Below, piece after piece: positions 152-43,590 of a stretch of 52,633 nucleotides of DNA; position 1 is the stretch's first letter, and every line of letters begins with the position of its first letter. Position numbers and translations under genes: made by a program. The notes under the pieces are model-generated. The model had not been told where the DNA came from, searched no databases, and saw only the letters and a list, made by a program, of their open reading frames with translations. Origin of the DNA: Candidatus Enterocola sp. (lineage in GTDB: Bacteria; Bacteroidota; Bacteroidia; Bacteroidales; Paludibacteraceae); NCBI GenBank assembly GCA_045616965.1, contig JAZLHT010000070.1, positions 1-52,633 on the forward strand, read 5' to 3'.

Positions 152-159
152 TATATTTG
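152..159 (+). promoter_or_regulatory. Possible Bacteroidetes -7 promoter box (TATATTTG, consensus TAnnTTTG) ahead of the PLD-SNF2 gene
   Basis: Exact TAnnTTTG match. It lies only 9 nt before the ATG at 168, so the transcript would be nearly leaderless. Other boxes in this window sit 20-45 nt upstream of their starts. Confidence 0.35.
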
Positions 160-167
160 CAAGGACA

Positions 168-3100
168 ATGAACAACACTTTAATAGATAATAGTAAAGGG
201 TTACTTATGAAAGATGTCATAAGGAATTTCATTGGAAGTGGAAAATACAATCATCTTTGTATTGCTACTGGTTACTGGGATTTGCCAGGTACAGCCATTG
301 TCTATGACTCCTTAAAAACATTTCTTGAATCTGGTGGGCGGTTGGATTTACTTTTGGGACAAGAGCCACAACTACGTTCTTACCAAACACACGCACCGGA
401 ACAAGACCAAGAAACATTTCCGGATTTCTATCTTCAGCGAGACATCAACCTTTTAACGGATGAGTATCGTCCTACTGCGGAACTTATTCAGCAGTATTGT
501 AAAGATAATAGTGATGATTCTCAAATACAAATCAGAATATTCGGTCAAAATGATTCTGCACATAAACAGTTTCTGCACGCAAAATGCTATATTTTTTTAG
601 GTCAGGGAGAGGCAGATGCCATAATAGGGAGTAGTAACTTTACAGAAAAGGGATTAGAGGATAATGCGGAATTAAACTATCTGGAAACACAGAATAATAT
701 TGTTACTGCACCTTTTTCTGAATATAGTAATTCTAAGAGTCATAAGGTTTGGTTTGATGAGAAGTGGGAGCAAAGTGTGCCTTGGAATGGAAAGTTCCTA
801 AAAATACTTGCAGAGGCACCTGTTGGTAAGCCAAAACCACAACCAAAGTCATTAACATCGTCACAAGAGGAACCTTTGACACCATACGAACTTTACATCA
901 AACTCCTTCAAACCAAGTTTGGAAATCTTGTTGACAAGAACCTTGATGAAGTCATTGAGAGTTATCTGCCTAAAGGTTTTGATAAATATAATTACCAAAT
1001 TGATGCTGTCAAGCAATGTTTCTCAACTATGAAAGAGCATGGTGGATTTCTGCTTGCTGATGTAGTAGGTTTGGGAAAGACCATAGTGGGCTCGCTTATA
1101 ATCAAACATTTTTTACAATTCCCCGATGATGACGGACGTGAACGTAAGGTTCTCATTGTAACACCTCCAGCCATTAAATCAGCGTGGGTAAACACTATTG
1201 CGGCATTTGATAAGGATTCTTCAGACAAGATGGAATCATATATTGATTATATTACAACAGGCAGTATCGGCAAATTAACAGCAGATGATAGCATTGAAGA
1301 CGAAGATGGTGATGACCATGATTCTGGAGATTTTGAGGAAGAATTAAAACATGAGAATTACGGACTTATCATAATAGATGAGAGTCATAAATTCCGTAAC
1401 AGTACCACAAATATGTATATGGCGCTTGATAATCTTATTGGTGAGATTGGAGCGGATACAGGGGCTTATCCTTATATTGGTTTGTTGAGTGCCACACCAC
1501 AGAATAACAAACCGGATGATTTGAAGAATCAGATATATCTTTTTGAGCGTAATCATAATGACACTACTTTACGTAAGGCCAATAGTGGTAATCTTGAAAA
1601 CTTCTTTTCAGAAATCAATACTGAGTATTCTGAAATAATTCACTCAAACAATACAGATTTTACTGCTACTAGTGAATATAATGAAAAGTTAAAAAAGCTC
1701 TCTCTTCGTATTAGAGACTGTGTTTTAACAGATATAATGGTTCGCCGTACACGTACAGATGTGCAAAAGTATTATAGTGATGATGTGGAGAACCAAAATC
1801 TTAAATTTCCTAAGATTGTAGGACCAAATGAGCTTGAATATCAGATGGATTCACAACTTTCCCACCTCTTTGCAGAGACAATGGATATTATAGCACCATC
1901 TGATTTGTATAAATTTAGTGGCAGCCCATATCTTGGGTATTATCGTTATCGTGCCATACAGTTTTTATCAGATGAAAAAAACAAGAAAAAGTATGATGCT
2001 CGTGGTTCTCGTGATGCAGACACGTTGGCTGACCAGTTGGCAAAGATAATGCAAATAAATCTTGTAAAGAGGCTTGAAAGTAGTTTCTCCGCCTTTTATC
2101 AGTCATTGCTTAATTTGCGTCAATATACTAAGAATATGATTGATATGTGGGAGTCTGATAATATTTTTATATGCCCGCAAATCAATGTTAATGCGGAACT
2201 TGACCGTAAGGAAAAAGAGAGAAAACGCAGAAGTCAGGTTAGTTATCAGGATTGTTTAAATGATATTCGCACAAGGATTCAGAGACTTAATGCTGAGGGG
2301 AGAAATGATAATGAGCGGAACAAGGAGTATAGCAGGGGGGATATGAAGCAAGAGTATATTGATTTGTTGCGTGCGGATTATGAGATTATATCTGATTTAT
2401 GTGATAGATGGATGAAGAATACAGAAGACCCCAAACTTGAGGTCTTTAAGGATAATCTGAAATATGAACTCTTTGACCCGGGCAGGAATGTGCCACAGAA
2501 ATTAGTTGTTTTTTCAGAGGCTATTGATACCGTTGATACAATCAAACGCGTGGCAGAGTCAAAAGGCTATAGAGTATTAAAGGTCACCGCCGCTAACAGA
2601 GATGAGATGGAATCCGTCATTCGTGAGAATTTTGATGCCAACTACGGCAAGGAGCAGGGTGAAATACAAAAAAATGACTATGATATAATTGTAACCACAG
2701 AGGTTCTTGCGGAAGGCATCAACCTACACCGTGCTAATGTCATTCTCAATTATGACACCCCTTGGAACTCAACCAGATTGATGCAACGTATAGGACGTGT
2801 AAATCGTATTGGTTCCACACAAGATAAAGTTTATGTCTATAATTTCAAGCCGAGTGCCGAGGGTAATGCAGAGATACAACTTGTACAGAAAGCATATACC
2901 AAACTACAGTCTTTCCACACGCTTTTTGGTGAAGACAACAAGGTGTTTACAGCCGATGAGGAGATAAGTCATTATGATTTGAATACAATAGTAAATGGAG
3001 AGGAATCTCCACTTGAAAAGTATATCTATGAGTTAAAACAGTATAAAGTGTCTCATCCTGAACGATATGATTTTATATTGAATTGTAATCAAAACCTTGA

Positions 3101-3653
3101 ATGTGCCACTACAACAGTAGATGGGAACTCATATTTCCTTGTACGTACTCCACGTATGTCAGGCTTATTTGTCAAGGTCGTCCGCAATGATAATACGGGG
3201 TATATTATTTCTGCCTCTGAGATGTATGAAAACTTTTCCGTACCACAGAATGCCCCTGTTGCTGAGTTGCCAGAGCAATGGTCTGATGATAAGAAAAAGG
3301 CGGAGTTGGCAGTTAATAAGTATCTACACAAGATGAATGTTCGTATGGGCAGCAGTGCAAGAGCCACAAAGGCAAAAGAGATTTTACGCAGAATGCAACA
3401 GAATGTTACTATGTCAGAACATTCAAAGTCGCTTCTTGCAGATGCTTTCACTTTGGTTAATAAAGGGAACTTGGATATTATAAAAAAAGTTCTTGCATTT
3501 GAAAGAGAACTTAACAGTTCACAGGGTAATTTGTTTGGTGGCTTGACACAACAAGATTTTGACGATATGATAGAGCGTGAAATCAGTCACATTGTTGCTA
3601 ATCTGCAACAACGTTACGGCAAGGCAGAAGTATTTATAGGACTTTCAAAATAA
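168..3653 (+). CDS. PLD-family (single HKD motif) nuclease fused to an SNF2-family helicase/translocase, about 1161 aa
   Basis: The ORF track opens at 3, but the first plausible start is the ATG at 168 (MNNTLIDN...). HKD motif: H-A-K at 576-584 through GSSN at 627-638. SNF2/SF2 motifs: GLGKT 1068-1082, DESH 1377-1388, QRIGRVNRIG 2784-2813. An acidic insert (DDSIEDEDGDDHDSGDFEEE) lies between motifs I and II. Confidence 0.85.
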   Translation: MNNTLIDNSKGLLMKDVIRNFIGSGKYNHLCIATGYWDLPGTAIVYDSLKTFLESGGRLDLLLGQEPQLRSYQTHAPEQDQETFPDFYLQRDINLLTDEYRPTAELIQQYCKDNSDDSQIQIRIFGQNDSAHKQFLHAKCYIFLGQGEADAIIGSSNFTEKGLEDNAELNYLETQNNIVTAPFSEYSNSKSHKVWFDEKWEQSVPWNGKFLKILAEAPVGKPKPQPKSLTSSQEEPLTPYELYIKLLQTKFGNLVDKNLDEVIESYLPKGFDKYNYQIDAVKQCFSTMKEHGGFLLADVVGLGKTIVGSLIIKHFLQFPDDDGRERKVLIVTPPAIKSAWVNTIAAFDKDSSDKMESYIDYITTGSIGKLTADDSIEDEDGDDHDSGDFEEELKHENYGLIIIDESHKFRNSTTNMYMALDNLIGEIGADTGAYPYIGLLSATPQNNKPDDLKNQIYLFERNHNDTTLRKANSGNLENFFSEINTEYSEIIHSNNTDFTATSEYNEKLKKLSLRIRDCVLTDIMVRRTRTDVQKYYSDDVENQNLKFPKIVGPNELEYQMDSQLSHLFAETMDIIAPSDLYKFSGSPYLGYYRYRAIQFLSDEKNKKKYDARGSRDADTLADQLAKIMQINLVKRLESSFSAFYQSLLNLRQYTKNMIDMWESDNIFICPQINVNAELDRKEKERKRRSQVSYQDCLNDIRTRIQRLNAEGRNDNERNKEYSRGDMKQEYIDLLRADYEIISDLCDRWMKNTEDPKLEVFKDNLKYELFDPGRNVPQKLVVFSEAIDTVDTIKRVAESKGYRVLKVTAANRDEMESVIRENFDANYGKEQGEIQKNDYDIIVTTEVLAEGINLHRANVILNYDTPWNSTRLMQRIGRVNRIGSTQDKVYVYNFKPSAEGNAEIQLVQKAYTKLQSFHTLFGEDNKVFTADEEISHYDLNTIVNGEESPLEKYIYELKQYKVSHPERYDFILNCNQNLECATTTVDGNSYFLVRTPRMSGLFVKVVRNDNTGYIISASEMYENFSVPQNAPVAELPEQWSDDKKKAELAVNKYLHKMNVRMGSSARATKAKEILRRMQQNVTMSEHSKSLLADAFTLVNKGNLDIIKKVLAFERELNSSQGNLFGGLTQQDFDDMIEREISHIVANLQQRYGKAEVFIGLSK

Positions 3654-3658
3654 AGAGT

Positions 3659-5083
3659 ATGATAAAATTGAAATTAAGTGAGAGTCAAAATGTTGAGTAT
3701 AAAGAATCTTGGAGAGATGAATACTTGAAGTGGATTTGTGGTTTTGCCAATGCTCAAGGAGGAAGATTATACATAGGAGTTAATGATGCCTGTGAGATTG
3801 TAGGTGTAGAGGACTCAAAAAAATTAATGGAGGATATTCCAAATAAAATTGTTTCTCAACTTGGAATACTATGTGACATAAATCTTTTAACGGATAGCGG
3901 ACTTAATTACATTGAGATAATAGTTGAACCCAATAGTGTGCCTATTAGTTATAAAGGTAAGTATCATTATCGTTCAGGTAGTACAAAACAAGAGATAAAC
4001 GGAGTGGCATTGCAGCAGTTTGTACTAAAAAAAATGGGAAACACTTGGGATGATTACGCCAGACAAAATGTGACGGTTGATGATATTGACCGTGAAGCAA
4101 TAGAATATTTCTTGAAAAAAGGAATTGAAGCAGGTCGTATTGACCCCGATGACCGCAATGCAACCACACAGCAGGTATTGGAGAACCTGAATCTAATAGA
4201 TGAGAACGGAAATCTTAAGAATGCCGCACTTCTGTTATTTGCAAAGAAACCACAGAAATATTTTCCGTGCGTTGAGTTCAGAATAGGCAAATTTGGACGT
4301 AATGAAGCAGAACTGATTGTTCAGGACAGTGTTGAGGGTAATCTTATACAAATGACAGATAAAGTTATAAAACTGCTTAAAACATACTACCTAAAATCAT
4401 ACATACACTATGAGGGTATGCAACGCATTGAAACACTTGAAGTGCCTGAACCTGCATTACGGGAAATAATTTATAATGCCATAGCACACAAAGACTATAC
4501 AGGAGTGCATATACAGATGCGTATATATGATAATCAGATACAGTTGTGGAATGATGGTGAATTGCCTGTAGGTTATACACAGGAAACGCTTATGCAGCAG
4601 CATTCGTCCAGACCGCGCAATAAGAATATTGCATTTGCGTTCTTTAAGGCTGGTTTTGTGGAAGCGTGGGGGCGTGGCTATAAGAAAATTGCAGAGGCTT
4701 TTGAGAATACAGAGTTGCCTATGCCTACAGTCAGGAATGACTGTGGCGGAACACTTGTAACAATTATGCGACCTACAGAGAGTCCGTATAAAGAACAAAA
4801 TGTCGGTAGTTATGCACAAAATGGCACAAAAGATGTCGTAAAAGAAAATCAAAAAGTCATAAAAGAATTTGAAATAGAACTAACTGAACGTCAATTGAAT
4901 ATAATAGCATATATGTCTTTGTTCCCAACTATCACTGTATCTGAAATGGCACAAAAGATGTCGGAAAAGAATTCTTTTACGACACGGACTATACAGCGTG
5001 ATATCGCCTTTCTTCAAAATCATGAAATAATTAGACGTGAAGGTGGACGTAAAGAGGGAAAATGGGTGGTACTTAAAGGCTAA
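3659..5083 (+). CDS. COG2865-type protein with Schlafen-like AlbA_2 N-domain, HATPase_c_4-like domain and C-terminal wHTH (often annotated as RecG-like or transcriptional regulator)
   Basis: N-terminus ESQNVEYKESW...FANAQGGRLYIGV matches the AlbA_2 signature. LREIIYNAIAHKDYTGVHIQMRIY..LWNDGELP matches the HATPase_c_4 signature. The C-terminal TERQLNII...TIQRDIAFLQNHEIIRREGGRKEGKWV looks like a wHTH. The gene starts 5 nt after the helicase stop. Confidence 0.8.
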   Translation: MIKLKLSESQNVEYKESWRDEYLKWICGFANAQGGRLYIGVNDACEIVGVEDSKKLMEDIPNKIVSQLGILCDINLLTDSGLNYIEIIVEPNSVPISYKGKYHYRSGSTKQEINGVALQQFVLKKMGNTWDDYARQNVTVDDIDREAIEYFLKKGIEAGRIDPDDRNATTQQVLENLNLIDENGNLKNAALLLFAKKPQKYFPCVEFRIGKFGRNEAELIVQDSVEGNLIQMTDKVIKLLKTYYLKSYIHYEGMQRIETLEVPEPALREIIYNAIAHKDYTGVHIQMRIYDNQIQLWNDGELPVGYTQETLMQQHSSRPRNKNIAFAFFKAGFVEAWGRGYKKIAEAFENTELPMPTVRNDCGGTLVTIMRPTESPYKEQNVGSYAQNGTKDVVKENQKVIKEFEIELTERQLNIIAYMSLFPTITVSEMAQKMSEKNSFTTRTIQRDIAFLQNHEIIRREGGRKEGKWVVLKG

Positions 5084-5093
5084 CAACTAAAAT

Positions 5094-8000
5094 GTGAAAA
5101 TACAAATGGTGGATTTAAAATCATATTTTCATAGTAAATACCAGGGTGGTGAGGATTTTATAAAAAATGTTATCATCCCTGTTTTTGGTGAGGATAAGTA
5201 TGAAGACACATACGGGGAGGATATTCTTGAGAACAATACAGACCTTATAAAAAAGGCTCAAGGTACGGGCATCGTTAAAATTCTCAGACTAGGCACTATT
5301 GATATTCCATATAATCCAACTGATGTGTTTGACATAACAGTTAGTGACCAAGTACAGATGAGACGTAACCGTGTTGCCGTGCAGCAACTTATACGCAGTG
5401 TGATGTCAACATACAGCAGTGCCTTTATGATATTTCACTACAGCGGTGACGATAAATGGGATTGGCGTTTTACATTTTGCAGTAAGCAAGGCAGTAATCA
5501 AGAATCTTCAGATTCCAAGCGTTATACATTCCTTCTTGGACCAAACCAAAGTTGCCGTACCGCCGCTGAAAACTTCAAGAAATTGGCAGACAAGTGTGGT
5601 AATATAGAGTTAAATGATATTGTAGCGGCGTTTGATGTGGAAGCCTTATCTAAGGAATTCTTTACTAAATATAAGGTTCATTATGACAAATTCTGTCAGT
5701 TTGTTTATGATAACAAAGACAATAGAGAATACTTTGGGCAAGAGTTCTCACAGTGGGAGGATAAGATTATACGTGATTATGTAAAAAAACTGCTTGGTCG
5801 AATAGTGTTTCTACACTTCTTGCAGAAAAAAGGCTGGCTTGGCGTTCCGTCCTGTGGGCAGTGGGGCGATGGCGATACCCAATTTATGAAACACCTGTTT
5901 GTGGCAAGTAGCGATGAGCAAAAAAGCGACTACCTTGATAAGGTTCTTGAGCCACTGTTTTCAGATGCACTCAATACTCAGCGGGATAACGATGTATTTA
6001 ACCTTAATGTAGCAGGATTTACAGATACTAAGATACCATATCTTAATGGTGGACTCTTTGAGCGTGATGAGTTGGATATTCCCAAATCAACATTTCCTGC
6101 TGATTATTTTGCAGACTTATTTGAGTTCTTTTATGAGTATAATTTTACCATAGATGAGAATGACCCCGATGACGCTGAGGTAGGCATTGACCCGGAAATG
6201 CTTGGGCGTATATTTGAGAATCTTTTGGAGGATAATAAGGATAAGGGAGCATACTATACACCAAAGGAGATAGTACAGTATATGTGCCGTGAGAGCCTTG
6301 TGGCCTATCTTACCACTTGCGTAATAAAGAAACACGGAGATAACCATAAGCCTGAGGAGGAGATACAAGCATCGGTACGTAAACTGTTAAAAGAACCAGA
6401 GGCTATTGTTCCTAAAATGACTAAGGAACAACTTGAGGATTTTGGCTCATATATACGCAATGTCAAAATTTGTGACCCTGCCATTGGTTCTGGAGCGTTC
6501 CCTATGGGACTGCTTAATGAATTGGTGCGTTGCCGTGCAAGCATAAACGCTTGGGCAACTGATGAAAAAGGCTCGGTTTTATCGGGAGATTACGCCGCTT
6601 TAAAGGCAGAAATTATAAGTAATAATATCTATGGTGTTGATATAGAGAAGGGTGCTATTGATATTGCCAGACTGCGGTTTTGGCTCAGCATAGTGGTAGA
6701 TGAGCAAACCCCGGAGGTTTTGCCTAATCTTGATTACAAGTTTATGCAGGGGAACTCACTTATTACCACATTTAATGGGGAGTATGTAAATCTTGACACC
6801 AATAGCCAACAACATACAAATGTTGTTGGAATGAAGAGAGAAAAGGCTAAACTCTATAGTTTGAAACAAAAATATTATGCAGCAACAGGAGATGCCAAAT
6901 ACCAATTAGGCATAGACATTAAGGACTCCATACTTACTCTAATATCTTATCAATTGGGTTACGAAATTCAATCGTGGTATGAAAAGAATTCCGCTAAACA
7001 GTTATCATTGTTTCCTGAAACAGAACCAAGACAACTCTCTTTTGCCGACATAAAAGAACAGCTACCTGCCGAAAAGCAAAAAATTATGGATGTTGGGATT
7101 GCAATTAGAAAACAGTTGGCAGATACTACCCGTTCTTTGGCAGAAAGAGCCCAAACAGACATACGGTTCTTTGATTGGCGTATTATGTTTACTGAGGTGT
7201 TTGAAGGAGAGAACCCTGGATTTGATATTGTGATTGGGAATCCACCGTATGTTCAACTTTCTAAGCAACCCAATGTTAGTGAACATTATAAGAAAGTGAT
7301 CAAAGAAACTTTTTGTACTTCTGGAGGAAGACAAAATCTTTTTATATTCATGTTGCACCAAGCAATAAATATTACAAATAAGAATGGTGTTGTTACGTAC
7401 ATTATCCCTAATACTATTCTTACACAAGAATATTATAAAGACACGCGAGAACTGTTATTAAAACACCATTTGCATACCATTGTCAATTACAACGATATGG
7501 AATTTGATAATGCTGTTGTTGAAAATGTAACATTAATCATTACCAAGGATTCGCCGAAGGAAAATGATGTCCAGATATATTCATGTAAAGGAAAAGAGAT
7601 TAATTATGTAAAAAAGATAAGTACAATAAAGTTTAAAAGACAAAAAGGTTATGTTTTTAATATTAATTCAAACGATTTTATAGAAAAATTGTTTGAAAAC
7701 GCTACACCATTGAATGAATTATGTAACATTAATCAAGCAATTGCTTTGAAGGGTGATAAATCATTGTCAATTAAGCAAGAATATTCCCCGCACTACTACA
7801 AGTTTCTGGATGGAAGAAATATTGGGCGTTATTCAATAGTTTGGGGTGGACTATACCTTGATTATGATGTGGAAAGAATTCATTCATGCAAGAGAAAAGA
7901 TATTTTTGAATGTAAAGAAAAATTGTTTTTCAGACGAGTTTCTGCAAATCTTATGGCAACTTACGATAATAATCAATATTTTGCACTAAATACACTTGTC

Positions 8001-8330
8001 GTAATTACTCCTAAGATAAAATGCGAAATTAAATTCATTCTTGCACTATTCAATTCAAAATTAATGAACTACGTTTACAAGAATAATTTCAAATCAACAA
8101 AAACAGTATTCTCTGAAATTCAAGCAAGAAGTGTAGGAGAGTTACCAATAAAAAGAGATGATGCACATAAAACGGAAATAGTGAGTATAGTTGACAACAT
8201 TCTTGCTGCAAAGAAAGCAAACCCACAAGCCGATACTTCCGCTCTTGAGGCGGAGATAGACCGTTTGGTTTATGACTTATATGGCTTGACCGATGATGAA
8301 ATAGCCATCGTAGAAGGAACAAACACTTAA
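5094..8330 (+). CDS. Gamma-class N6-adenine DNA methyltransferase of the Eco57I/MmeI/PglX family with a C-terminal target-recognition-like region, about 1075 aa
   Basis: Motif order is GAYYTPKEIV, then DPAIGSGAFP (6474-6503), YGVDIEKGAIDIARLRFWL, LPNLDYKFMQGNSL, a long coiled insert, FFDWRIMFTEVF and FDIVIGNPPYV (NPPY at 7239-7250). The start is GTG at 5094 or ATG at 5106. Confidence 0.85.
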   Translation: MKIQMVDLKSYFHSKYQGGEDFIKNVIIPVFGEDKYEDTYGEDILENNTDLIKKAQGTGIVKILRLGTIDIPYNPTDVFDITVSDQVQMRRNRVAVQQLIRSVMSTYSSAFMIFHYSGDDKWDWRFTFCSKQGSNQESSDSKRYTFLLGPNQSCRTAAENFKKLADKCGNIELNDIVAAFDVEALSKEFFTKYKVHYDKFCQFVYDNKDNREYFGQEFSQWEDKIIRDYVKKLLGRIVFLHFLQKKGWLGVPSCGQWGDGDTQFMKHLFVASSDEQKSDYLDKVLEPLFSDALNTQRDNDVFNLNVAGFTDTKIPYLNGGLFERDELDIPKSTFPADYFADLFEFFYEYNFTIDENDPDDAEVGIDPEMLGRIFENLLEDNKDKGAYYTPKEIVQYMCRESLVAYLTTCVIKKHGDNHKPEEEIQASVRKLLKEPEAIVPKMTKEQLEDFGSYIRNVKICDPAIGSGAFPMGLLNELVRCRASINAWATDEKGSVLSGDYAALKAEIISNNIYGVDIEKGAIDIARLRFWLSIVVDEQTPEVLPNLDYKFMQGNSLITTFNGEYVNLDTNSQQHTNVVGMKREKAKLYSLKQKYYAATGDAKYQLGIDIKDSILTLISYQLGYEIQSWYEKNSAKQLSLFPETEPRQLSFADIKEQLPAEKQKIMDVGIAIRKQLADTTRSLAERAQTDIRFFDWRIMFTEVFEGENPGFDIVIGNPPYVQLSKQPNVSEHYKKVIKETFCTSGGRQNLFIFMLHQAINITNKNGVVTYIIPNTILTQEYYKDTRELLLKHHLHTIVNYNDMEFDNAVVENVTLIITKDSPKENDVQIYSCKGKEINYVKKISTIKFKRQKGYVFNINSNDFIEKLFENATPLNELCNINQAIALKGDKSLSIKQEYSPHYYKFLDGRNIGRYSIVWGGLYLDYDVERIHSCKRKDIFECKEKLFFRRVSANLMATYDNNQYFALNTLVVITPKIKCEIKFILALFNSKLMNYVYKNNFKSTKTVFSEIQARSVGELPIKRDDAHKTEIVSIVDNILAAKKANPQADTSALEAEIDRLVYDLYGLTDDEIAIVEGTNT

Positions 8331-8343
8331 AAACTTGACTAAT

Positions 8344-10152
8344 ATGGTAGAAATTAGAAATAAATCCTATTTTGATGATTATCTTGAATCTCTACTTAAT
8401 CAAACAGAGTGTGATGATATAGAGTTTAAGAGTGCAGAAGGTGGTTTTCCTGAAAATTTTTGGGATACGTATTCTGCTTTTGCAAATACAGATGGTGGAA
8501 CTATTGTATTTGGTGTTAAAGAGAAAAATGGAGCGTTCTTCCTTAATGGTCTTACTGCTGATCAAATTGATAAGTATAAAAAGACGTTTTGGACAAATGT
8601 AAATAATCGTTCCACTATCAGTTGTAATTTGATGAAAGAGAGAGATGTAATTGTTGCTACGTATAAGGGCTATAATTTTATGTTATTTTTTGTTCCTAGG
8701 GCAAATAATGAACAACGGCCTGTTTTTCGTACAAACAATCCTTATAACGGAACTTTTAAACGTAACTACGAGGGTGATTATAAATGTACCGAAAAAGAAG
8801 TTAGGCGTATGTTTGCCGATGCCGATGATATGCATCCGGCAGACAGTCGCATATTGAAGAATTATACAATGGACGATATTGATGGTGAAACTCTTGCTAA
8901 ATACAGACAGTTATTTAAAACATCTTCTCCTGATCATCCTTGGCTCTCATTGAGTGATATTGAACTTTTAAGGATGCTAGGTGGTTATCGCAAAGATCGC
9001 CAAACGGGAGAGGAGGGTTTTACTGTGGCAGGGTTATTGATGTTTGGTAAATATCAATCAATAACTGATGTGGAGTGTACTCCAAATTTTTTTCCTGATT
9101 ACCAAGAACACCTTACAGAAGATAAAGATGTAAGATGGACAAATAGAATTTATGCAGACGGGACTTGGGAGGCAAACTTATTTAACTTTTATCAAAGAGT
9201 TTTGCCAAGATTACAATCGGTATTACCTAAACCGTTTAGATTAGAAGATAATATACGAAGGGAGGAAACGCCTGCACATATTGCAGTTAGAGAGGCTCTT
9301 ATAAATCTGTGTGTTCACGCTGATTATACAGAGAATGCTTCTTTGGTAGTAAGACATAATGCAAATTCATTTGTTTTTTCTAATCCTGGTACTATGCTTA
9401 TTTCAAAAGAGCAATATTATTATGGAGGAGAGAGTGTATGCAGAAATAAGTCTCTTCAGAAAATGTTTGCAATGCTTGGTGTTGCTGAGAAGGCAGGTAG
9501 TGGAACTGATAAAATAATGAAGGGATGGCAGGAAGCAAATTGGCGTGCTCCAAATGTGGAAATTCAACAAAATCCTGATAAAGTTGTATTAGTGATGCCT
9601 ATGGAATCATTCTTATCTGAAAAGGCAAAAGTAAAGTTGGAAGAAAAATTTGGTTTGTTAGCGGATAAATTCGAGCATAATGTACTATCTGTGTTATCTT
9701 TAGTTATTGATGAAGGGTCTGTTACAAATGAAAGATTAAGGTACTCTTTGAATTTGCATAAATCTCAAATTTCAGATTTACTTAAACAAATGTGTCGTAA
9801 GCATTTATTAGTAACAAAAGGTCATGGTAGGGGAATGAAGTACTTTTTCCCTGATATTCAAATGAATGTATTACGTTCAGAGGTTGCAACCTCCAGAGAA
9901 AAGGTTGCAACCTCCGAAGAAAAGGTTGCAACCCATATAAAACAAAAAATGTCATTTGGAGAGTTAGAAGAGTTCATATGTAAAATATGTTTAGAATGGG
10001 TTGATCTAACAGAAATATCTAGAAAATCTCAACGGGACTACTCATACTTGAGAAACAAAATTATTCCACGCTTGTTGAAAGAGGATCGTATAGAGATGAT
10101 GTTCCCTGGAACTCCAAATCATCCAAAACAACAATATAGAATAAAGGAATGA
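8344..10152 (+). CDS. Second COG2865-type Schlafen-like AlbA_2 / HATPase_c_4 / wHTH protein
   Basis: IEFKSAEGGFPENFWDTYSAFANTDGGTIVFGVKEK matches AlbA_2. VREALINLCVHADY...FSNPGTMLIS matches HATPase_c_4. The tail looks like a wHTH. The ORF opens at TTG 8335 and the first ATG is at 8344. It is clearly paralogous to the gene at 43585-45165. Confidence 0.8.
   Translation: MVEIRNKSYFDDYLESLLNQTECDDIEFKSAEGGFPENFWDTYSAFANTDGGTIVFGVKEKNGAFFLNGLTADQIDKYKKTFWTNVNNRSTISCNLMKERDVIVATYKGYNFMLFFVPRANNEQRPVFRTNNPYNGTFKRNYEGDYKCTEKEVRRMFADADDMHPADSRILKNYTMDDIDGETLAKYRQLFKTSSPDHPWLSLSDIELLRMLGGYRKDRQTGEEGFTVAGLLMFGKYQSITDVECTPNFFPDYQEHLTEDKDVRWTNRIYADGTWEANLFNFYQRVLPRLQSVLPKPFRLEDNIRREETPAHIAVREALINLCVHADYTENASLVVRHNANSFVFSNPGTMLISKEQYYYGGESVCRNKSLQKMFAMLGVAEKAGSGTDKIMKGWQEANWRAPNVEIQQNPDKVVLVMPMESFLSEKAKVKLEEKFGLLADKFEHNVLSVLSLVIDEGSVTNERLRYSLNLHKSQISDLLKQMCRKHLLVTKGHGRGMKYFFPDIQMNVLRSEVATSREKVATSEEKVATHIKQKMSFGELEEFICKICLEWVDLTEISRKSQRDYSYLRNKIIPRLLKEDRIEMMFPGTPNHPKQQYRIKE
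9881..9934 (+). repeat. In-frame 21-bp tandem repeat, about 2.6 copies (aggttgcaacctccRRagaaa), encoding VATSREK/VATSEEK/VAT
   Basis: Read directly from the sequence. It lies in the linker between the HATPase_c_4-like domain and the C-terminal wHTH of the 8344-10152 gene. Confidence 0.9.
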
Positions 10153-11808: not shown

Positions 11809-11837
11809 CATTTTTTAACATTTGATTAAACCTTTTT

Positions 11838-11873
11838 GTAATCATCAGTTATAATTTTGTAACTGATGATTAC
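11838..11873 (+). terminator. Rho-independent terminator-like hairpin after the spmAB-like gene
   Basis: Perfect 14-bp arms gtaatcatcagtta / taactgatgattac with an 8-nt loop, followed by a T-rich run (gtgattttttt). Confidence 0.6.
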
Positions 11874-11941
11874 AGTGATTTTTTTGCAAATTATAAAAAA
11901 TGTTAAAGTTTTGATTTAGTGTTTTTTATATAAAAAATTTG

Positions 11942-12186: not shown

Positions 12187-12489
12187 ATGAAAAAGAGAGT
12201 GATTTTTTTATTATCCGCCACACATTCATCTATTGTGGCGTTGGCTCAAGGGAATGGAGTTGCCGCTATAGAAAAGGCAAATTCTGAGATTCAATCCTAT
12301 ATTGAACCTATTACCACACTATTTTATGTAATATGTGCGGTTGTAGGGTTTATAGGTGCTGTAAAAGTGTATAGCAAGTGGTCTTCGGGCAGTCCTGACA
12401 CCACTCGTACCGCTGCATCATGGTTTGGAAGCTGTGTATTTGCAGTTGTAGCGGTAACCGCTATCCGTGCGTTTTTCTTAGGCTCATAA
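12187..12489 (+). CDS. traE: TraE-like (DUF4134) conjugative transposon protein, VirB2-like pilin candidate
   Basis: Signal peptide plus AQGNGVAAIEKA...KVYSKWSSGSPDTTRTAASWFGSCVF closely resembles CTnDOT-family TraE. Confidence 0.85.
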   Translation: MKKRVIFLLSATHSSIVALAQGNGVAAIEKANSEIQSYIEPITTLFYVICAVVGFIGAVKVYSKWSSGSPDTTRTAASWFGSCVFAVVAVTAIRAFFLGS

Positions 12490-12501
12490 ACCATATTTAA
12501 T

Positions 12502-12813
12502 ATGGCAAGGTATCAAATAAATAAAGGAGTAGGAAAATCGGTAGAGGTAAAAGGTCTCAGAGCCCAATACTTTATATGTGCTGTGATAGGCATAGTGATC
12601 GCATTTGTAGTGTTTTTCATACTATCGTTTATTGTAGGTCAAGTGGCATCTATAATTGTAGCGGTTTTCTGCCTTGTCATAAATGTGTCAATGTGTTTCT
12701 ATTTGAATAATAAATTCGGAGAAAAAGGGTTGGTCCAATTATATGCCGTTAGGGCAATGCCAAAAAGGATTGCAATACATAAAAGGTTATACATAATAAT
12801 CGGAGTTAAATGA
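12502..12813 (+). CDS. traF: TraF-like (DUF4133) conjugative transposon protein
   Basis: MARYQINKGVGKSVEVKGLRAQYF... matches the conserved TraF N-terminus. Two TM segments are present. Confidence 0.85.
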   Translation: MARYQINKGVGKSVEVKGLRAQYFICAVIGIVIAFVVFFILSFIVGQVASIIVAVFCLVINVSMCFYLNNKFGEKGLVQLYAVRAMPKRIAIHKRLYIIIGVK

Positions 12814-15296
12814 AAATAAAGTCAAAGGATATTGAGAAGTGTCTGCCTCTGTTATGCTGGGAGAATGGCTGTCTTATCAGCAAAGCAGCGGACATAACGG
12901 TGCCGTTTTGTTTAAGTATGCCGCAGGTCTATTCTTTAGGAAAAGAAAATTTTGAACAACTGCATCAAACTTGGGTAAGGGCATTGAAATGTCTGCCGGA
13001 CAATTCCATTGTTCACAAACAGGATTGGTTTTTCACAGATGAGTATAAGGCTGACTTATCAGGTGAAAAAACATTTCTCGGTACTGCTTCTGACAATCAT
13101 TTTAATGGAAGAAAATCCATCAGGCATTGCTGTTTCCTATATCTTACCATGTCATCTGCAAAAAGTATTTCAACTACCAGTCAGTTTTCGGCACTTTGCA
13201 CTGGTAATTTAATAAGTGAGAATGTTTTAAATCTTGCTATGATTAAGTCTTTTTCCGATTCTGTAAGTCGCTTTTGTGGAGTTTTGGAAGAAAACGGAAT
13301 AGGCATAAGAAGGGTTAGTGAAAAGGAAATGTTGGGAACGGCGGCTGAATATGGTGTAATCGAGCAGTATCTTACGTTGTCTTTAGGTAAAACATCGGGT
13401 TATGCATTATGTGATATAACTTGTAATGAGATGGATACAAGGGTTGGTGATAATTATTTGAGCTGTTTCTCAATATCAGATTTGGACCAACTACCCTCCG
13501 AAGTTTTCACGTACAAGATTCATGATAAATTGTCGTCTGAAAGTACAAATTTTCCAATAGGCTATACACACTCTTTGGGTTTTGATTTGCCGTTTGACCA
13601 TATATATAATCAGTATTTCTTTTTAGTGTCGCATAAAGACACAATAAATGCAATAGAGCGCAGGGGAAGGGAACAGCAGTCACTGTCAAGAATCTCAAGG
13701 GAGAATGCTATAAACAAAGAGTTCAATGATATGTATCTTAATGAGAGTGTAATCAATGCCAGAAGGTGTGTAAAAGTGGCTGCGAACATACTTTTATGGG
13801 ACACCAACTATCAGCGGTTACTAAAAAAGAATACCAAAACAGGCTCGGTACTTGCAAATATGGATTGTACTGTATCAAAAACACAAGGTATAGTGCCACA
13901 GATTTTTTGGGGCGGGATACCAGGTGCAGCGTCACAGTTTCCGTCAGAGATGACATTTCTCACTTTTTTGGAACAAGCCTGCTGTTTTGTTTATAACGAG
14001 AGCAATATTAAGTCAGTCGGTAGTGATTTTGGCATACGTTTATGTGATAGGATTTTTGGATTACCACTGAATATAGATATATCGGATTATCCAAGGCAGA
14101 AGGGTTGGACTGATAATAGGAACAAATTTATACTTGGTCCCTCAGGTACAGGGAAATCATTTTTCACCAACCACATGGTCAGGCAATATTACGAACAAGG
14201 AGCACATGTAGTAATTGTCGATGTTGGCGACAGTTACCAAGGTTTGACAAAAATGATACAGGAAACAACTAATGGCAAGGATGGTGTTTACCTCCAGTAT
14301 TCAGAAGAACATCCAATTTCGTTCAACCCTTTTTATGTTGCAGACAGAGTATATACTGTTGAGAAAAGGGAGCAGTTGGCTGCTTTGGTTTTCTGTCTTT
14401 GGAAGAATGAAAGTGAGCAGATAACAAAAGCGGAAGAGACGCACATTTCAGTGGCAATAAATAATTATATCGACTACATTATGCAAAACAGTATATTCCC
14501 TTGTTTTGACACTTTTTTTGAATATTTAGATGTGCAGTACAGGGAATACATGTTATCAAAAGGAGTGGATAAATATAGTTTTGACATAGATAATCTGCTT
14601 CAGGTGTTGAGTCCGTACTACATAGGTGGAATGTACCATTTTTTACTAAATGCTACAGAAAATGCTGATTTGCTTGACAAGCGTTTTATTGTATTTGAAA
14701 TTGACAGCATAAAGGACCATAAAACTTTATTTCCAGTGGTTACGTTGATGCTGATGGATACCTTTATATCCAAGATGAGACACCGTTCTCTAGCAATGGA
14801 TAGAAAAATGATATTGATAGAAGAGGCTTGGAAAGCTATATCAAAGAGTGGTACGGCACAGTTCATAAAATATTTGTACAAAACCGTTAGAAAGCACTTT
14901 GGAGAGGCGATTGTAGTTACACAGGAGGTTGATGACATTGTTGGAAATGAAATCATAAAGAACACTATTATTTCAAACGCCGATTGCAAGATATTACTTG
15001 ATCAGCGTAAATATGCAAATAGATTTGATGATATAAAGCAAATTCTCGCGTTAAGCGAAAAGGAGGCGGCGATAGCACTGTCAATTAACAAGGATATAAA
15101 AACAGTTGGAAGAGCACCCTATAAGGAGGTTTTTATAACATTAAACGGGAATCTTACATCTGTATATGGCGTGGAGGTTTCCAAAGAGGAATATTTGACT
15201 TATACTACGGAGAAAAAAGAGAAAGAGACTGTCATTCAAAAAGAGAAGGAGACAGGTAGTTATATAGAGGCAATTAAAAGTCTGATAAATAAATGA
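12810..15296 (+). CDS. traG: TraG-family conjugative transposon ATPase (VirB4-like)
   Basis: 828 aa. Walker A GPSGTGKS at 14136-14159. ATGA overlap with traF. Size and position are typical. Confidence 0.9.
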   Translation: MKIKSKDIEKCLPLLCWENGCLISKAADITVPFCLSMPQVYSLGKENFEQLHQTWVRALKCLPDNSIVHKQDWFFTDEYKADLSGEKTFLGTASDNHFNGRKSIRHCCFLYLTMSSAKSISTTSQFSALCTGNLISENVLNLAMIKSFSDSVSRFCGVLEENGIGIRRVSEKEMLGTAAEYGVIEQYLTLSLGKTSGYALCDITCNEMDTRVGDNYLSCFSISDLDQLPSEVFTYKIHDKLSSESTNFPIGYTHSLGFDLPFDHIYNQYFFLVSHKDTINAIERRGREQQSLSRISRENAINKEFNDMYLNESVINARRCVKVAANILLWDTNYQRLLKKNTKTGSVLANMDCTVSKTQGIVPQIFWGGIPGAASQFPSEMTFLTFLEQACCFVYNESNIKSVGSDFGIRLCDRIFGLPLNIDISDYPRQKGWTDNRNKFILGPSGTGKSFFTNHMVRQYYEQGAHVVIVDVGDSYQGLTKMIQETTNGKDGVYLQYSEEHPISFNPFYVADRVYTVEKREQLAALVFCLWKNESEQITKAEETHISVAINNYIDYIMQNSIFPCFDTFFEYLDVQYREYMLSKGVDKYSFDIDNLLQVLSPYYIGGMYHFLLNATENADLLDKRFIVFEIDSIKDHKTLFPVVTLMLMDTFISKMRHRSLAMDRKMILIEEAWKAISKSGTAQFIKYLYKTVRKHFGEAIVVTQEVDDIVGNEIIKNTIISNADCKILLDQRKYANRFDDIKQILALSEKEAAIALSINKDIKTVGRAPYKEVFITLNGNLTSVYGVEVSKEEYLTYTTEKKEKETVIQKEKETGSYIEAIKSLINK

Positions 15297-15916
15297 GTAT
15301 GAAAAAGTTATACATATCAATCTTATTGCTTGCTTTTTGGAACACAATTTTTTCGCAGGCTGTGGTTACAGACCCTACCTCAATGTCACAGAGGATAGCG
15401 TTGTTTTTTGAGGAGATGGAGGAATCAATATCTCAGAGTATTGATATTGCTGATAATGCAGAAAATATGAGCAAGTTGTTTGAGCTTACAAAAGAATCTG
15501 CTGAAAAATTAAAAAGGGTAAGCAATTTTGTAAAGGCTTCACGGCAGGTTGTGGAGATTACCGGTGCAGAGATAAGAATTGCCGATAAAATGGACAAGTA
15601 TATCAACAGAATCAACGAAATTGATGAATTGACAATGACGGAGAAACTAAATATAATAGCTTCTATTATGAATTTTGGAACAGTTGCCGCAGAACGTATA
15701 AAAAATGGTGTTGAAATGGCAAAGAATGGTGTAAATGACGCAGATTTGTCTGATTATGAAAGAATAGAGATTTTAACAAAAATAGAAGATGAAGTGTTGG
15801 CATTGGAAGATGCGATAGATAAGACGTACGAACTGAGTTTGTCTAAAGTGGCTTATGACGGAATTAAAAACGGCATGGAGAACTTGAAGGTTCAAGCGAT
15901 GACATTCTCATTTTAA
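15293..15916 (+). CDS. DUF4141/TraI-like conjugative transposon protein
   Basis: Signal peptide followed by VVTDPTSMSQRI... and a coiled region, resembling DUF4141 proteins found between TraG and TraJ. The TraH-versus-TraI naming is uncertain. Confidence 0.55.
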   Translation: MSMKKLYISILLLAFWNTIFSQAVVTDPTSMSQRIALFFEEMEESISQSIDIADNAENMSKLFELTKESAEKLKRVSNFVKASRQVVEITGAEIRIADKMDKYINRINEIDELTMTEKLNIIASIMNFGTVAAERIKNGVEMAKNGVNDADLSDYERIEILTKIEDEVLALEDAIDKTYELSLSKVAYDGIKNGMENLKVQAMTFSF

Positions 15917-15927
15917 ATCAGTAATAT

Positions 15928-17055: not shown

Positions 17056-17057
17056 AT

Positions 17058-17678: not shown

Positions 17679-17872
17679 TGAACAAAACGGAATATTATAG
17701 AAAACGCATTGCTCTTATAATTAAGAGCATAAGTGACAGATTCAGTTCTTATTTAAATGAAATGAATCCTTCAAAAAGAAAGTGTGCGTTAATAGTGGCA
17801 TTTGTTGTTTGCCTGACAGTACTTGTAATTCAAACAATGGTGGCGTATTTTAAACTTATAGATAAAATTTAA
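17678..17872 (+). CDS. traL: TraL-like small membrane protein
   Basis: 64 aa with a single TM segment. It sits between traK and traM as in CTnDOT-type operons. The call rests on position and size only. Confidence 0.45.
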   Translation: MNKTEYYRKRIALIIKSISDRFSSYLNEMNPSKRKCALIVAFVVCLTVLVIQTMVAYFKLIDKI

Positions 17873-17873
17873 T

Positions 17874-43558: not shown

Positions 43559-43590
43559 GGGTGACTAAAATGGTATTATTTTAGTCACCC
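43559..43590. terminator. Bidirectional terminator hairpin between convergent cobB and the COG2865 paralogue
   Basis: 13-bp arms gggtgactaaaat / attttagtcaccc with a 6-nt loop. A8 lies upstream and a T-run downstream. Confidence 0.65.

What the first reader, a model, noticed from the sequence alone, without database searches (positions are those of the whole stretch)
152..10152. Four-gene PLD-SNF2 / PglX-MmeI-type methyltransferase / two Schlafen-like COG2865 genes: candidate unnamed restriction-modification-like defence operon
Seen in sequence: four same-strand genes are separated by only 5, 10 and about 4-13 nt. Gene 1 fuses one HKD phospholipase-D nuclease motif (576-638) to a full SNF2 helicase (GLGKT 1068, DESH 1377, motif VI 2784). 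Gene 3 is a gamma-class N6A methyltransferase (motif I 6474, NPPY 7239) with the YGVDIE..RLRFWL / GNSL / FxW..FPEVF-like layout of MmeI and BREX PglX, plus a TRD-like tail. Genes 2 and 4 are AlbA_2 (Schlafen-like) + HATPase_c_4 + wHTH proteins. No PglZ, BrxC, DrmA/DrmB, HsdS or classical endonuclease is present. Established knowledge: PLD nuclease, SNF2 helicase and N6A methylase are DrmC, DrmD and DrmMI of class 1 DISARM. Type ISP enzymes combine nuclease, translocase, methylase and TRD in one chain. Inference: this may be a split nuclease-translocase (R-like) plus methylase-TRD (M/S-like) system. The two COG2865 proteins could act as sensors, regulators or effectors. I could not match it to a named system from memory.
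Basis: partly seen in the sequence, partly recalled or inferred. Interest (0 to 1): 0.8.

Follow-up and report, generated by a model that had tools for sequence, protein, structure and literature searches.

The report
PLD-SNF2 plus methylase restriction module
The locus is a real, widespread but never tested two-gene restriction-modification-like pair (a nuclease-motor protein plus a DNA adenine methylase), into which two optional Schlafen-like defence genes have been inserted in this genome, so it is interesting but not a new four-gene system.

Summary

- **Conserved unit:** two genes, not four. They are g1 (one HKD/PLD nuclease domain plus an SNF2 ATPase) and g3 (a gamma-class N6-adenine methylase with a TaqI-type specificity domain and no detectable nuclease domain).
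- **Linkage:** in 70 related loci from different species, g3 follows g1 directly in 66 (median gap 12.5 nt) and after one inserted gene in 3.
- **g2 and g4:** prokaryotic Schlafen / mini-histidine-kinase / wHTH proteins with an intact Ex4ExK motif. They are only 22% identical to each other and are optional cargo. g2 sits where close relatives have a 12-nt spacer. Its close homologues also lie in BREX and McrBC-like loci.
- **Named systems:** no DISARM, BREX or Hma/BR family cut-off is met, and their other core genes are absent.
- **Prior notice:** the pair has been mentioned in passing in print (L. lactis pLd8 2018; programmed inversions 2023; probably P. intermedia 2017). It has no name and no restriction experiment.
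- **Most likely mechanism:** an ATP-dependent, Type III/ISP-like restriction system. g3 marks self DNA and finds targets. g1 translocates and cuts after its PLD domains pair. The Schlafen genes act as backup effectors.

The parts
152..159 (+). TAnnTTTG match (Bacteroidetes -7-like promoter element) 9 nt upstream of the g1 ATG
   Evidence: Read directly from the sequence. It is only a consensus match, and function is not shown. The contig starts 167 nt upstream of g1, so anything further upstream is unseen.
168..3653 (+). g1: N-terminal single-HKD PLD nuclease domain (about aa 1-215; HxK...GSSN at nt 576-638), SNF2 ATPase (motif I nt 1068, DESH nt 1377, motif VI nt 2784) and a conserved C-terminal region of about 230 aa with unknown fold
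   Evidence: - Pfam finds PLDc_2, SNF2-rel_dom and Helicase_C.
- The best PADLOC match is 'C3a139 HKD+Snf2' at 8e-41.
- The catalytic residues are invariant in 12 homologues.
- The top Foldseek hit is SauUSI, a PLD-helicase restriction enzyme, but the model is low-confidence.
3659..5083 (+). g2: prokaryotic Schlafen (AlbA_2) + HATPase_c_4 (mini histidine-kinase-like) + C-terminal HTH. Accessory gene inserted between g1 and g3.
   Evidence: - Pfam domains.
- Ex4ExK motif, ESQNVEYK at aa 8-15 (motif definition from bioRxiv 10.1101/2025.07.24.666596).
- Relatives L001, L004 and L008 have only a 12-nt spacer at this position.
- Homologues 57-71% identical lie in BREX, McrBC-like and AIPR contexts.
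5094..8330 (+). g3 (probable start 5106): conserved N-terminal alpha/beta domain + helical region (aa 1-436), gamma-class N6-adenine methylase (motif I about nt 6474, NPPY nt 7239) and a variable TaqI_C specificity domain (about nt 7800-8150) with a C-terminal helical tail
   Evidence: - Pfam finds Eco57I, N6_Mtase, MmeI_Mtase and TaqI_C.
- PADLOC finds REase_MTase_IIG at 1.5e-86.
- A PDB profile search hits CamA, M.BseCI, BrxX/PglX and TaqI.
- Foldseek hits CamA, M.BseCI and BrxX/PglX.
- Conservation is high for aa 130-560 and low after about aa 700.
8335..10152 (+). g4: second Schlafen (AlbA_2) + HATPase_c_4 + wHTH protein. Accessory gene; its stop overlaps the ybeY start by 4 nt.
   Evidence: - Pfam domains.
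- Ex4ExK motif, ECDDIEFK.
- Only 22% identical to g2.
- None of 80 homologue loci has ybeY next to it or a close g1/g3 relative; about 12 have a distant SNF2 or methylase gene upstream.
11836..11875 (+). Only strong + strand terminator-like hairpin downstream of the four genes (after ybeY and a membrane-protein gene). It is the possible end of the transcription unit.
   Evidence: An 18-bp stem followed by a T-run. That all six genes are co-transcribed is inferred only from the tiny gaps and the lack of any earlier strong terminator.

Best explanation
The core is a two-subunit, ATP-dependent restriction-modification system.

- **g3 is the modification and specificity subunit.** It is built like MmeI/PglX/TaqI. 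Its TaqI_C-type domain reads a short, probably asymmetric site, and its gamma-class methylase puts m6A on it, which marks self DNA.
- **g1 is the restriction subunit.** It is recruited or licensed by g3 at unmethylated sites. Its SNF2 motor hydrolyses ATP to move along double-stranded DNA. It carries only half of a PLD active site, so two g1 molecules (or two converging complexes) must pair their HKD domains to cut. This would tie cleavage to the meeting of two unmodified sites, as in Type ISP, Type III and SauUSI enzymes.
- **g2 and g4 are not core parts.** They are independently acquired prokaryotic Schlafen / mini-histidine-kinase / wHTH genes of the kind found embedded in many methylation-based defence operons. 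They most likely act as second-line, phage-triggered RNase (tRNA-cleaving) effectors.

**Shown here:** domain content, intact catalytic motifs, near-obligate g1-g3 linkage, a variable specificity domain, and the optional nature of g2 and g4.

**Inferred:** a g1-g3 complex, translocation, cutting that depends on PLD dimerisation, hemimethylation, and RNase activity of g2 and g4.
For: **Linkage**
- A g1 relative was found in 437 species genomes. Of 70 fetched loci with downstream DNA, g3 is the next same-strand gene in 66 (median gap 12.5 nt). It follows one inserted gene in 3 more.
- Three look-ups that started from g3 homologues all found PLD-SNF2 directly upstream.
- The same pair is on a Lactococcus plasmid and a P. 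nigrescens replicon.

**Active sites**
- HxK...GSSN, GLGKT, DESH and motif VI are invariant in g1 homologues.
- Motif I and NPPY are invariant in g3 homologues.

**g3 lacks its own nuclease**
- There is no MmeI_N or other nuclease Pfam hit on aa 1-440.
- No conserved D...(D/E)xK pattern appears among the invariant residues.

**Specificity variation, as expected of an RM system**
- g3 identity falls from about 0.7-0.9 (aa 130-560) to 0.2-0.3 in the specificity domain.
- 12 of 80 loci carry inverted partial g3 copies plus a serine invertase.
- L089 and L091 show the same element with a 3.0-kb segment inverted at 99.7% identity. The break lies in the NPPY-coding repeat.

**Precedents**
- The best structural match of g1 is SauUSI, a dimeric PLD-helicase ATP-dependent restriction enzyme (low-confidence model).
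- In P. intermedia, a 'Type IIG' enzyme with an SNF2/RAD54 helicase gene upstream, which is probably a relative, methylates GGYGAB when cloned (PMC5608340).
- The g1 family is essentially absent from phage genomes.

**g2 and g4**
- The Ex4ExK motif is intact in both (motif from bioRxiv 10.1101/2025.07.24.666596).
- g2 is an insertion, and its homologues sit in a BREX operon between PglX and PglZ and in other defence islets.
- The literature describes this architecture as common cargo of BREX and BREX-related loci (PMC12839542).
Against: - No experiment shows restriction by any member of this family.
- No physical g1-g3 interaction has been tested.
- The g1 model is poor (pLDDT 57), so the SauUSI match rests mainly on the PLD and first RecA-like domain.
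- The fold of the g3 N-terminal domain could not be searched on its own, so a cryptic or degenerate nuclease cannot be excluded.
- REBASE-derived models label g3-type proteins as bifunctional Type IIG enzymes.
- The contig starts 167 nt upstream of g1, so an upstream partner (for example the small HTH controller seen in L081 and L089-L092) cannot be seen here.
- For the Schlafen-HisK-HTH architecture, the cited preprint reports no defence phenotype.
Confidence: 0.62

Rival explanations
1. Two independent systems lie side by side. g3 would be a self-contained Type IIG restriction-modification enzyme, or an orphan phase-variable methylase that regulates genes (as Cj0031 does). g1 would be a separate SauUSI-like (Type IV) ATP-dependent nuclease that attacks foreign, modified DNA.
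For: - PADLOC's best models for g3 are 'REase_MTase_IIG', and they include its N-terminal 41-426.
- g3-type genes were classed as Cj0031 homologues, and some of those are solitary or paired with DUF1016 instead (PMC9881135).
- The best structural match of g1 is SauUSI.
Against: - Adjacency in 69 of 70 loci with gaps of about 12 nt argues for a single unit.
- g3 shows no nuclease domain or motif.
- g1 shows no recognisable reader domain for modified bases.
- A Type IV enzyme paired with an m6A methylase in one operon would need a mutual-exclusion logic that nothing here supports.
Confidence: 0.15
2. The locus is a reduced or partial member of a named multi-gene system: class 1 DISARM (DrmD + DrmMI + DrmC) or a Type-2 BREX-related/Hma system (HKD-SNF2 helicase + N6-methylase + DUF499 ATPase + DUF3780). 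Its missing partners would lie beyond the contig start or elsewhere in the genome.
For: - g1 hits the DrmD, BrxHII and HmaA models, and g3 hits the DrmMI and PglX models.
- Type-2 BR systems use an N-terminal HKD fused to a Swi2/Snf2 helicase as the effector (PMC12839542).
- The contig begins just upstream of g1.
Against: - All scores are far below the curated cut-offs: DrmD 129 against 610 bits, and PglX 76 against 500 bits.
- HmaA is a weaker match than the generic SNF2 models.
- In 80 related loci with up to 10 kb on each side, no third gene family recurs beyond invertase/shufflon parts, a 215-aa unknown protein (10 loci) and sporadic cargo.
- Seven large neighbouring ORFs contain no DUF499, DUF1998 or PglZ.
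Confidence: 0.1
3. The pair is not a defence system. It would be an epigenetic switch in which g3 is a phase-variable regulatory methylase and g1 is a DNA-remodelling or repair motor. g2 and g4 would be transcription regulators, as COG2865 is traditionally annotated.
For: - Invertible specificity cassettes also typify phasevarions.
- COG2865 is named a 'predicted transcriptional regulator' by one source.
- A third paralogue sits among housekeeping genes.
Against: - The intact, invariant HKD nuclease motif fused to the motor.
- Carriage on plasmids and mobilisable elements, and a patchy spread across phyla.
- Neighbours are often other defence genes.
- The Schlafen catalytic motif is intact.
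Confidence: 0.08

Closest known systems
PLD-SNF2 + 'Type IIG-like' methylase pairs already noted in the literature: L. lactis pLd8 orf33/orf34 (PMC6098607), the 'Cj0031-homologue with upstream PLD+SNF CDS' loci with programmed inversions (PMC9881135), probably P. intermedia Pin17FIII (PMC5608340), and possibly the CRISPR-III neighbour cluster C3a139 'HKD+Snf2' (PMC6546367)
   Same: - Same two families in the same order and orientation. I checked this directly for a Lactococcus plasmid (pJM1F): g1 is 26% identical over about 1000 aa (E 4e-62) and g3 is 33% identical (E 8e-50). pLd8 itself was not compared.
- The 2018 paper made the same inference, that the PLD supplies the nuclease the methylase lacks.
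- C3a139 is linked only through a hit of g1 to its PADLOC profile.
   Different: - This locus has no invertase or shufflon.
- It carries two Schlafen-type genes, one of them inside the pair.
- None of these papers names the pair, surveys it or tests restriction.
- I could not verify Pin17FIII by sequence.
Type ISP (LlaGI/LlaBIII) and Type III restriction-modification enzymes
   Same: Same functional logic (established knowledge): an ATP-driven SF2 motor, a nuclease, a gamma-type (ISP) or separate Mod (III) methylase with a specificity domain, an asymmetric site methylated on one strand, and cleavage that needs two enzymes or sites to meet.
   Different: - ISP is a single chain with an Mrr/PD-(D/E)XK nuclease and a Type I-like motor.
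- Type III Res has a C-terminal PD-(D/E)XK nuclease, and Mod is a beta-class methylase.
- Here the nuclease is a single HKD/PLD domain, the motor is SNF2-type, and the parts are split 2 + 2 across two genes.
Class 1 DISARM (DrmD SNF2 helicase, DrmMI methylase, DrmC PLD nuclease, DrmA, DrmB)
   Same: Three of the five domain families are present, and helicase and methylase are adjacent. The DrmD and DrmMI models are hit at 1e-25 to 1e-37.
   Different: - DrmA and DrmB (DUF1998), which define DISARM, are absent here and in all 80 related loci.
- The PLD is fused to the helicase.
- Scores are far below the equivalog cut-offs.
Type-2 BREX-related (Hma-like) systems (PMC12839542)
   Same: The effector is an N-terminal HKD endonuclease fused to a Swi2/Snf2 helicase, partnered with an N6-adenine methylase. 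Schlafen-HisK-wHTH genes are frequent embedded cargo.
   Different: - The defining DUF499 AAA+ ATPase and DUF3780 are absent.
- The PADLOC HmaA model scores below DrmD, BrxH and C3a139.
SauUSI (Type IV, PDB 7CLG)
   Same: An N-terminal PLD nuclease followed by an SF2 helicase-like motor. It is a dimer through the PLD domain and cleaves in an ATP-dependent way. It is the top Foldseek hit for g1.
   Different: - SauUSI reads 5mC/5hmC through its own C-terminal domain and has no partner methylase.
- g1 has an SNF2-type motor and an unrelated C-terminus.
- The g1 model is low-confidence.
Prokaryotic Schlafens (pSlfn), HisKinase-HTH class (bioRxiv 10.1101/2025.07.24.666596); by analogy, PrrC in the EcoprrI Type Ic locus (my own knowledge)
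   Same: g2 and g4 have AlbA_2 with the Ex4(E/D)xK motif, then HATPase_c_4, then an HTH. This is the second most common pSlfn architecture (19%). Like PrrC, they are embedded in an RM operon.
   Different: - The two pSlfns shown to defend have other sensor domains (DUF262, Ig-like).
- RNase activity, a trigger, or any coupling to the RM proteins has not been shown for this architecture.

Membership tests
Class 1 DISARM | DrmA (helicase with DUF1998) and DrmB (DUF1998) core genes | tested here: not met
   - The region holds only four genes, and none is DrmA- or DrmB-like beyond generic helicase similarity.
- No such family recurs in 80 related loci.
- Seven large neighbouring ORFs lack it.
Class 1 DISARM | DrmD equivalog score (NCBIfam NF038317, cut-off 610 bits) | tested here: not met
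   g1 scores 129 bits.
BREX (types 1-6) | PglZ and BrxC/PglY present; PglX equivalog score | tested here: not met
   There is no PglZ or BrxC among the four genes. g3 scores 76 bits against the 500-bit cut-off of BREX_1_MTaseX.
Hma / Type-2 BREX-related system | DUF499 AAA+ ATPase and standalone DUF3780 next to the HKD-SNF2 helicase and the methylase | tested here: not met
   - Absent from the four-gene region and from the flanks of 80 related loci.
- What lies upstream of the contig start cannot be seen.
Type IIG (MmeI/Eco57I-like) restriction-modification enzyme | Nuclease, methylase and specificity domain in one polypeptide | tested here: inconclusive
   - The methylase and TaqI_C specificity domain are present, and the PADLOC IIG models are hit at 1.5e-86.
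- However, no nuclease Pfam domain is found on aa 1-440, and no conserved D...(D/E)xK appears among the invariant residues.
- The fold of the N-terminal domain could not be searched separately.
Type ISP restriction-modification enzyme | Single chain: Mrr-type nuclease, SF2 motor, methylase, specificity domain | tested here: not met
   The parts are split over two genes, the nuclease is PLD rather than Mrr, and the motor is SNF2-type.
PLD-SNF2 + gamma-methylase/TRD two-gene module (unnamed) | g1-family gene immediately upstream of a g3-family gene on the same strand, with intact HKD, ATPase and NPPY motifs | tested here: met
   - The motifs are intact.
- The order is kept, although g2 is inserted between the two genes.
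- 69 of 70 related loci keep the pair.
Prokaryotic Schlafen, HisKinase-HTH class | AlbA_2 domain with the Ex4(E/D)xK motif, followed by HATPase_c_4 and an HTH | tested here: met
   - g2 has ESQNVEYK and g4 has ECDDIEFK.
- Both have Pfam AlbA_2 and HATPase_c_4, with weak HTH or Fic-like_C hits.
- RNase activity cannot be tested with these tools.
Restriction-modification system (functional sense) | Sequence-specific methylation that protects self DNA, and nuclease attack on unmethylated DNA | not testable with these tools
   The only indirect support is that Pin17FIII, a probable relative, methylates GGYGAB when cloned (PMC5608340). No restriction data exist.

The most novel reading that the evidence does not exclude
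The two Schlafen / mini-kinase / wHTH proteins are not mere neighbours. They would be latent tRNA nucleases wired to the PLD-SNF2/methylase complex in a PrrC-like guard arrangement. They would stay silent while the restriction complex is intact and fire when a phage anti-restriction protein (an Ocr-like DNA mimic or a methylase inhibitor) disables it.

The underlying PLD-SNF2 + methylase pair would then be a distinct, still unclassified type of ATP-dependent restriction enzyme. Its cutting would depend on the collision-driven pairing of two half PLD sites.
Probability: 0.15. Interest if true: 0.7.

Novelty: new variant of a known kind. Interest (0 to 1): 0.42.

Why it matters
The PLD-SNF2 + methylase pair is common: at least 437 species in one narrow pattern scan, on chromosomes, plasmids and mobilisable elements of gut, rumen, oral and dairy bacteria. 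Annotation pipelines nevertheless call it only 'helicase-related protein' plus 'N-6 DNA methylase' or 'Type IIG'.

If it works as proposed, three things follow.
- It would be a further architectural solution for ATP-dependent restriction, with an SNF2 motor and a half-site PLD nuclease.
- It would explain unassigned m6A motifs in Bacteroidales methylomes.
- It would be a practical barrier to genetic manipulation of Prevotella and Bacteroides.

The locus also offers a compact natural case for testing whether Schlafen-HisK-wHTH genes embedded in methylation-based defence operons are functionally coupled to them.

Tried and rejected
- **Exact look-up of g2 in public assemblies:** nothing on record.
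- **Sequence search of g1 and g3 against the PDB:** only generic SNF2 and TaqI hits. Profiles added CamA, M.BseCI, BrxX and, weakly, MmeI, but nothing for the g3 N-terminus.
- **AlphaFold models:** the g1 model is poor (pLDDT 57, pTM 0.30). I therefore use its SauUSI and RapA matches only as hints, and I did not interpret the C-terminal 230 aa. The g3 model is moderate (pLDDT 70). Foldseek on the whole chain is dominated by the methylase, so it cannot tell whether aa 1-145 is a degenerate nuclease fold.
- **Hma / Type-2 BR and DISARM membership:** rejected. No DUF499, DUF3780 or DUF1998 is present, and scores are sub-threshold.
- **Invertible specificity cassettes or an invertase in this window:** none.
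- **Is the g4-ybeY overlap ancestral?** No. None of 80 g4-homologue loci has ybeY next to it.
- **Phage origin:** rejected. There is one weak helicase-only hit in 50,697 phage records.
- **Sigma-70 promoter scan:** uninformative for a Bacteroidetes-like sequence.
- **Literature searches for a name for the pair:** 'PLD-SNF2', 'cd09178', 'HKD+Snf2' and similar terms returned only passing mentions.

Full report
**1. What is in the sequence**

Nucleotides 168-10152 carry four + strand genes.
- g1: 168-3653.
- g2: 3659-5083.
- g3: 5094-8330. The start shared with homologues is more likely the ATG at 5106.
- g4: 8335-10152.

The gaps are 5, 10-22 and 4-13 nt.

- g1 has PLDc_2, SNF2-rel_dom and Helicase_C.
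- g2 and g4 have SLFN_AlbA_2 and HATPase_c_4, plus weak C-terminal HTH signals.
- g3 has Eco57I, N6_Mtase, MmeI_Mtase and TaqI_C.

In g1 these are HxK...GSSN, GLGKT, DESH and motif VI. In g3 they are motif I and NPPY.

The stop of g4 overlaps the start of ybeY. The only strong + strand terminator-like hairpin lies after the next gene, at 11836-11875. The contig starts 167 nt upstream of g1. A TAnnTTTG match lies at 152-159.

**2. The conserved unit is two genes**

A pattern scan of one genome per species found g1 relatives in 437 species. I fetched the best 80 loci. They are mostly Bacteroidales, but also include Lachnospiraceae, Treponema, Kiritimatiellia, Akkermansia, Desulfovibrionaceae and others.

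Seventy of these loci have at least 600 nt downstream of g1.
- In 66, a g3 homologue is the next gene on the same strand (median gap 12.5 nt).
- In 3, a single gene is inserted between the two (RhuM in two of them).
- In 1, no g3 homologue is seen.

Three look-ups that started from g3 homologues all found PLD-SNF2 directly upstream. The same pair lies on Lactococcus plasmid pJM1F and on a 568-kb P. nigrescens replicon. There it is annotated only as a helicase-related or DEAD/DEAH helicase protein plus 'N-6 DNA methylase'. The family is essentially absent from phage genomes.

Clustering of all flanking ORFs found no other gene family that recurs with the pair, apart from the following:
- inverted partial g3 copies plus a serine invertase (12 loci);
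- an unknown 215-aa protein (10 loci);
- sporadic cargo.

Seven large neighbouring ORFs have no DUF499, DUF1998 or PglZ.

**3. g2 and g4 are optional cargo**

- g2 and g4 are only 22% identical to each other.
- In relatives whose g1 is about 80% identical, the g1 stop is followed by 12 nt and then the g3 start. In the window, g2 sits exactly there.
- Among the 80 loci, a COG2865-type gene lies next to the pair in only five, and always upstream.
- In L089-L092 another lineage lies upstream. It is 20-23% identical to g2 and g4.
- Homologues 57-71% identical to g2 sit in a BREX operon between PglX and PglZ, next to a McrBC-like pair, and in an AIPR/SNF2/GIY-YIG/C5-methylase islet.
- Homologues of g4 never have ybeY next to them. 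About 12 of 80 lie near distant SNF2 or methylase genes.
- Both g2 and g4 keep the Ex4(E/D)xK motif, which the pSlfn preprint defines as the Schlafen RNase catalytic site (the sequences are).

Rakesh and Krishnan describe exactly this architecture as a backup effector embedded in at least 1017 BREX and BREX-related loci. The association with the pair is therefore recurrent and probably functional in a loose, modular sense. It is not a fixed four-gene system.

**4. How it most likely works**

*g3.* It has the layout of MmeI, PglX and TaqI-like enzymes.
- Its methylase-plus-specificity half matches CamA, M.BseCI, BrxX/PglX and TaqI.
- Its first 440 residues are conserved, but give no nuclease domain hit.
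- No conserved D...(D/E)xK motif is present.
- Conservation is high in the N-terminal and first methylase parts and collapses in the specificity domain.

In related loci the C-terminal 370 residues are swapped by site-specific inversion. L089 and L091 are the same element with a 3.0-kb segment flipped at 99.7% identity. The crossover lies in the NPPY-coding repeat. This is the behaviour of a specificity subunit under diversifying pressure.

*g1.* It has an intact ATPase and a single HKD. From established knowledge of Nuc, BfiI and SauUSI, a single HKD must pair with another to form one active site. The best structural match of g1, on a weak model, is SauUSI.

*Inference.* I infer a Type III/ISP-like mechanism.
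- g3 methylates one strand of an asymmetric site and licenses g1 at unmodified sites.
- g1 translocates with ATP.
- Cutting follows when two PLD domains meet.
- The Schlafen genes would add an abortive, RNA-directed second layer.

None of these steps has been tested experimentally. The one supporting experiment concerns P. intermedia Pin17FIII, a probable relative with an upstream SNF2/RAD54 helicase. It methylates GGYGAB when cloned. I could not verify that homology by sequence.

**5. Comparison with what is known**

- *Curated thresholds.* They fail for DISARM DrmD (129 against 610 bits) and BREX PglX (76 against 500 bits).
- *PADLOC.* The best g1 model is 'C3a139 HKD+Snf2'. This is a neighbour cluster of type III CRISPR loci from Shah et al. 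2018, listed beside a methyltransferase cluster and an invertase cluster.
- *Type-2 BREX-related (Hma-like) systems.* They share an HKD-Swi2/Snf2 effector and an N6-methylase. They are defined, however, by a DUF499 ATPase and DUF3780, and both are absent here.
- *Prior mentions of the pair.* van Mastrigt et al. 2018 described it on L. lactis pLd8. They proposed that the PLD provides the nuclease missing from the REBASE 'Type IIG' protein, and noted the DISARM resemblance. Milman et al. 2023 listed it as a context for long-read-confirmed programmed inversions.

My literature searches found no name for the pair, no survey of it and no restriction experiment.

**6. Verdict**

- The R-like plus M/S-like reading is supported and is the best explanation (confidence about 0.6).
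- The four-gene system is not supported. The Schlafen genes are modular add-ons.
- Novelty is moderate. This is an unclassified variant of ATP-dependent restriction-modification that has been noticed before, here with two embedded Schlafen-type genes. Interest is about 0.4.
- The most novel reading still open is a PrrC-like guard coupling between the Schlafen proteins and the restriction complex (probability about 0.15).

Noticed in passing
window 12187-20026 (+), possibly to about 25.4 kb: A block of Bacteroidetes conjugative-transposon genes starts 300 nt after the terminator that follows the locus: DUF4134/TraE-like, DUF4133/TraF-like, TraG P-loop, TraM and DUF4138/TraN-like. The defence genes may therefore sit at the edge of, or inside, an integrative conjugative element, although ybeY and a membrane-protein gene lie in between.
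   Followed up: partly
window 43585-45165 (-) and tRNA-Phe 45409-45482 (-): A third Schlafen AlbA_2 + HATPase_c_4 + Fic-like_C (wHTH) gene. It is 46% identical to g4 and stands alone among housekeeping genes, next to the only tRNA gene of the window, in a local GC dip.
   Followed up: partly
L089:9131-12143 versus L091:9131-12143; also L010, L013, L018, L025, L026, L030, L032, L036, L043, L047, L074, L078, L081, L082: A shufflon. Inverted partial copies of the methylase C-terminus plus a serine (Mpi-family) invertase lie downstream of the pair. Two natural samples carry the same element with the 3.0-kb segment in opposite orientations (99.7% identity). The inverted repeats of about 47 bp lie at the FDIVIGNPPY-coding site. 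The window has no shufflon.
   Followed up: yes
L013:18530-19177, L089:10406-11071, L093:10335-11006 and 9 other loci: An unknown protein of about 215-223 aa with no Pfam hit recurs directly beside the pair, in 10 of 80 species loci and in three metagenome loci (33-34% identity across them). In L089 and L091 it lies inside the invertible segment. It is not present in the window.
   Followed up: partly
L072:13619-14617, L076:8185-9291; upstream of g1 in L048, L049, L064: A RhuM-family gene (PF13310, 2e-111) is inserted between the PLD-SNF2 gene and the methylase gene in two Treponema loci. That is the position g2 occupies in the window, which suggests this intergenic spot is a preferred landing site for accessory genes.
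   Followed up: partly
L081:8798-9001, L089:1753-1959, L091:1731-1937: A 68-aa HTH_3 gene lies at the head of the operon in several relatives. It abuts the helicase gene or the upstream Schlafen-type gene and may be a C-protein-like controller. The window's contig starts too close to g1 to tell whether it has one.
   Followed up: no
L086:8001-9410: A 57%-identical g2 homologue is embedded in a BREX operon. It lies 23 nt after PglX (Eco57I domain, 1185 aa) and 4 nt before PglZ, with BrxL downstream and an SNF2 helicase upstream.
   Followed up: partly
window 9877-9940 (within g4): g4 encodes three imperfect tandem copies of the peptide E(K)VATS. The DNA here forms a 14-bp-stem hairpin on the - strand at 9902-9934. 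Its significance is unknown.
   Followed up: no
window 10149-10152: The g4 stop codon overlaps the ybeY start (ATGA), so a housekeeping RNase gene looks translationally coupled to an accessory defence gene. None of 80 g4-homologue loci shares this junction.
   Followed up: partly
window 20594-24586 (+): A 1330-aa ORF in the conjugative-element block has no Pfam hit at E <= 1e-4.
   Followed up: no
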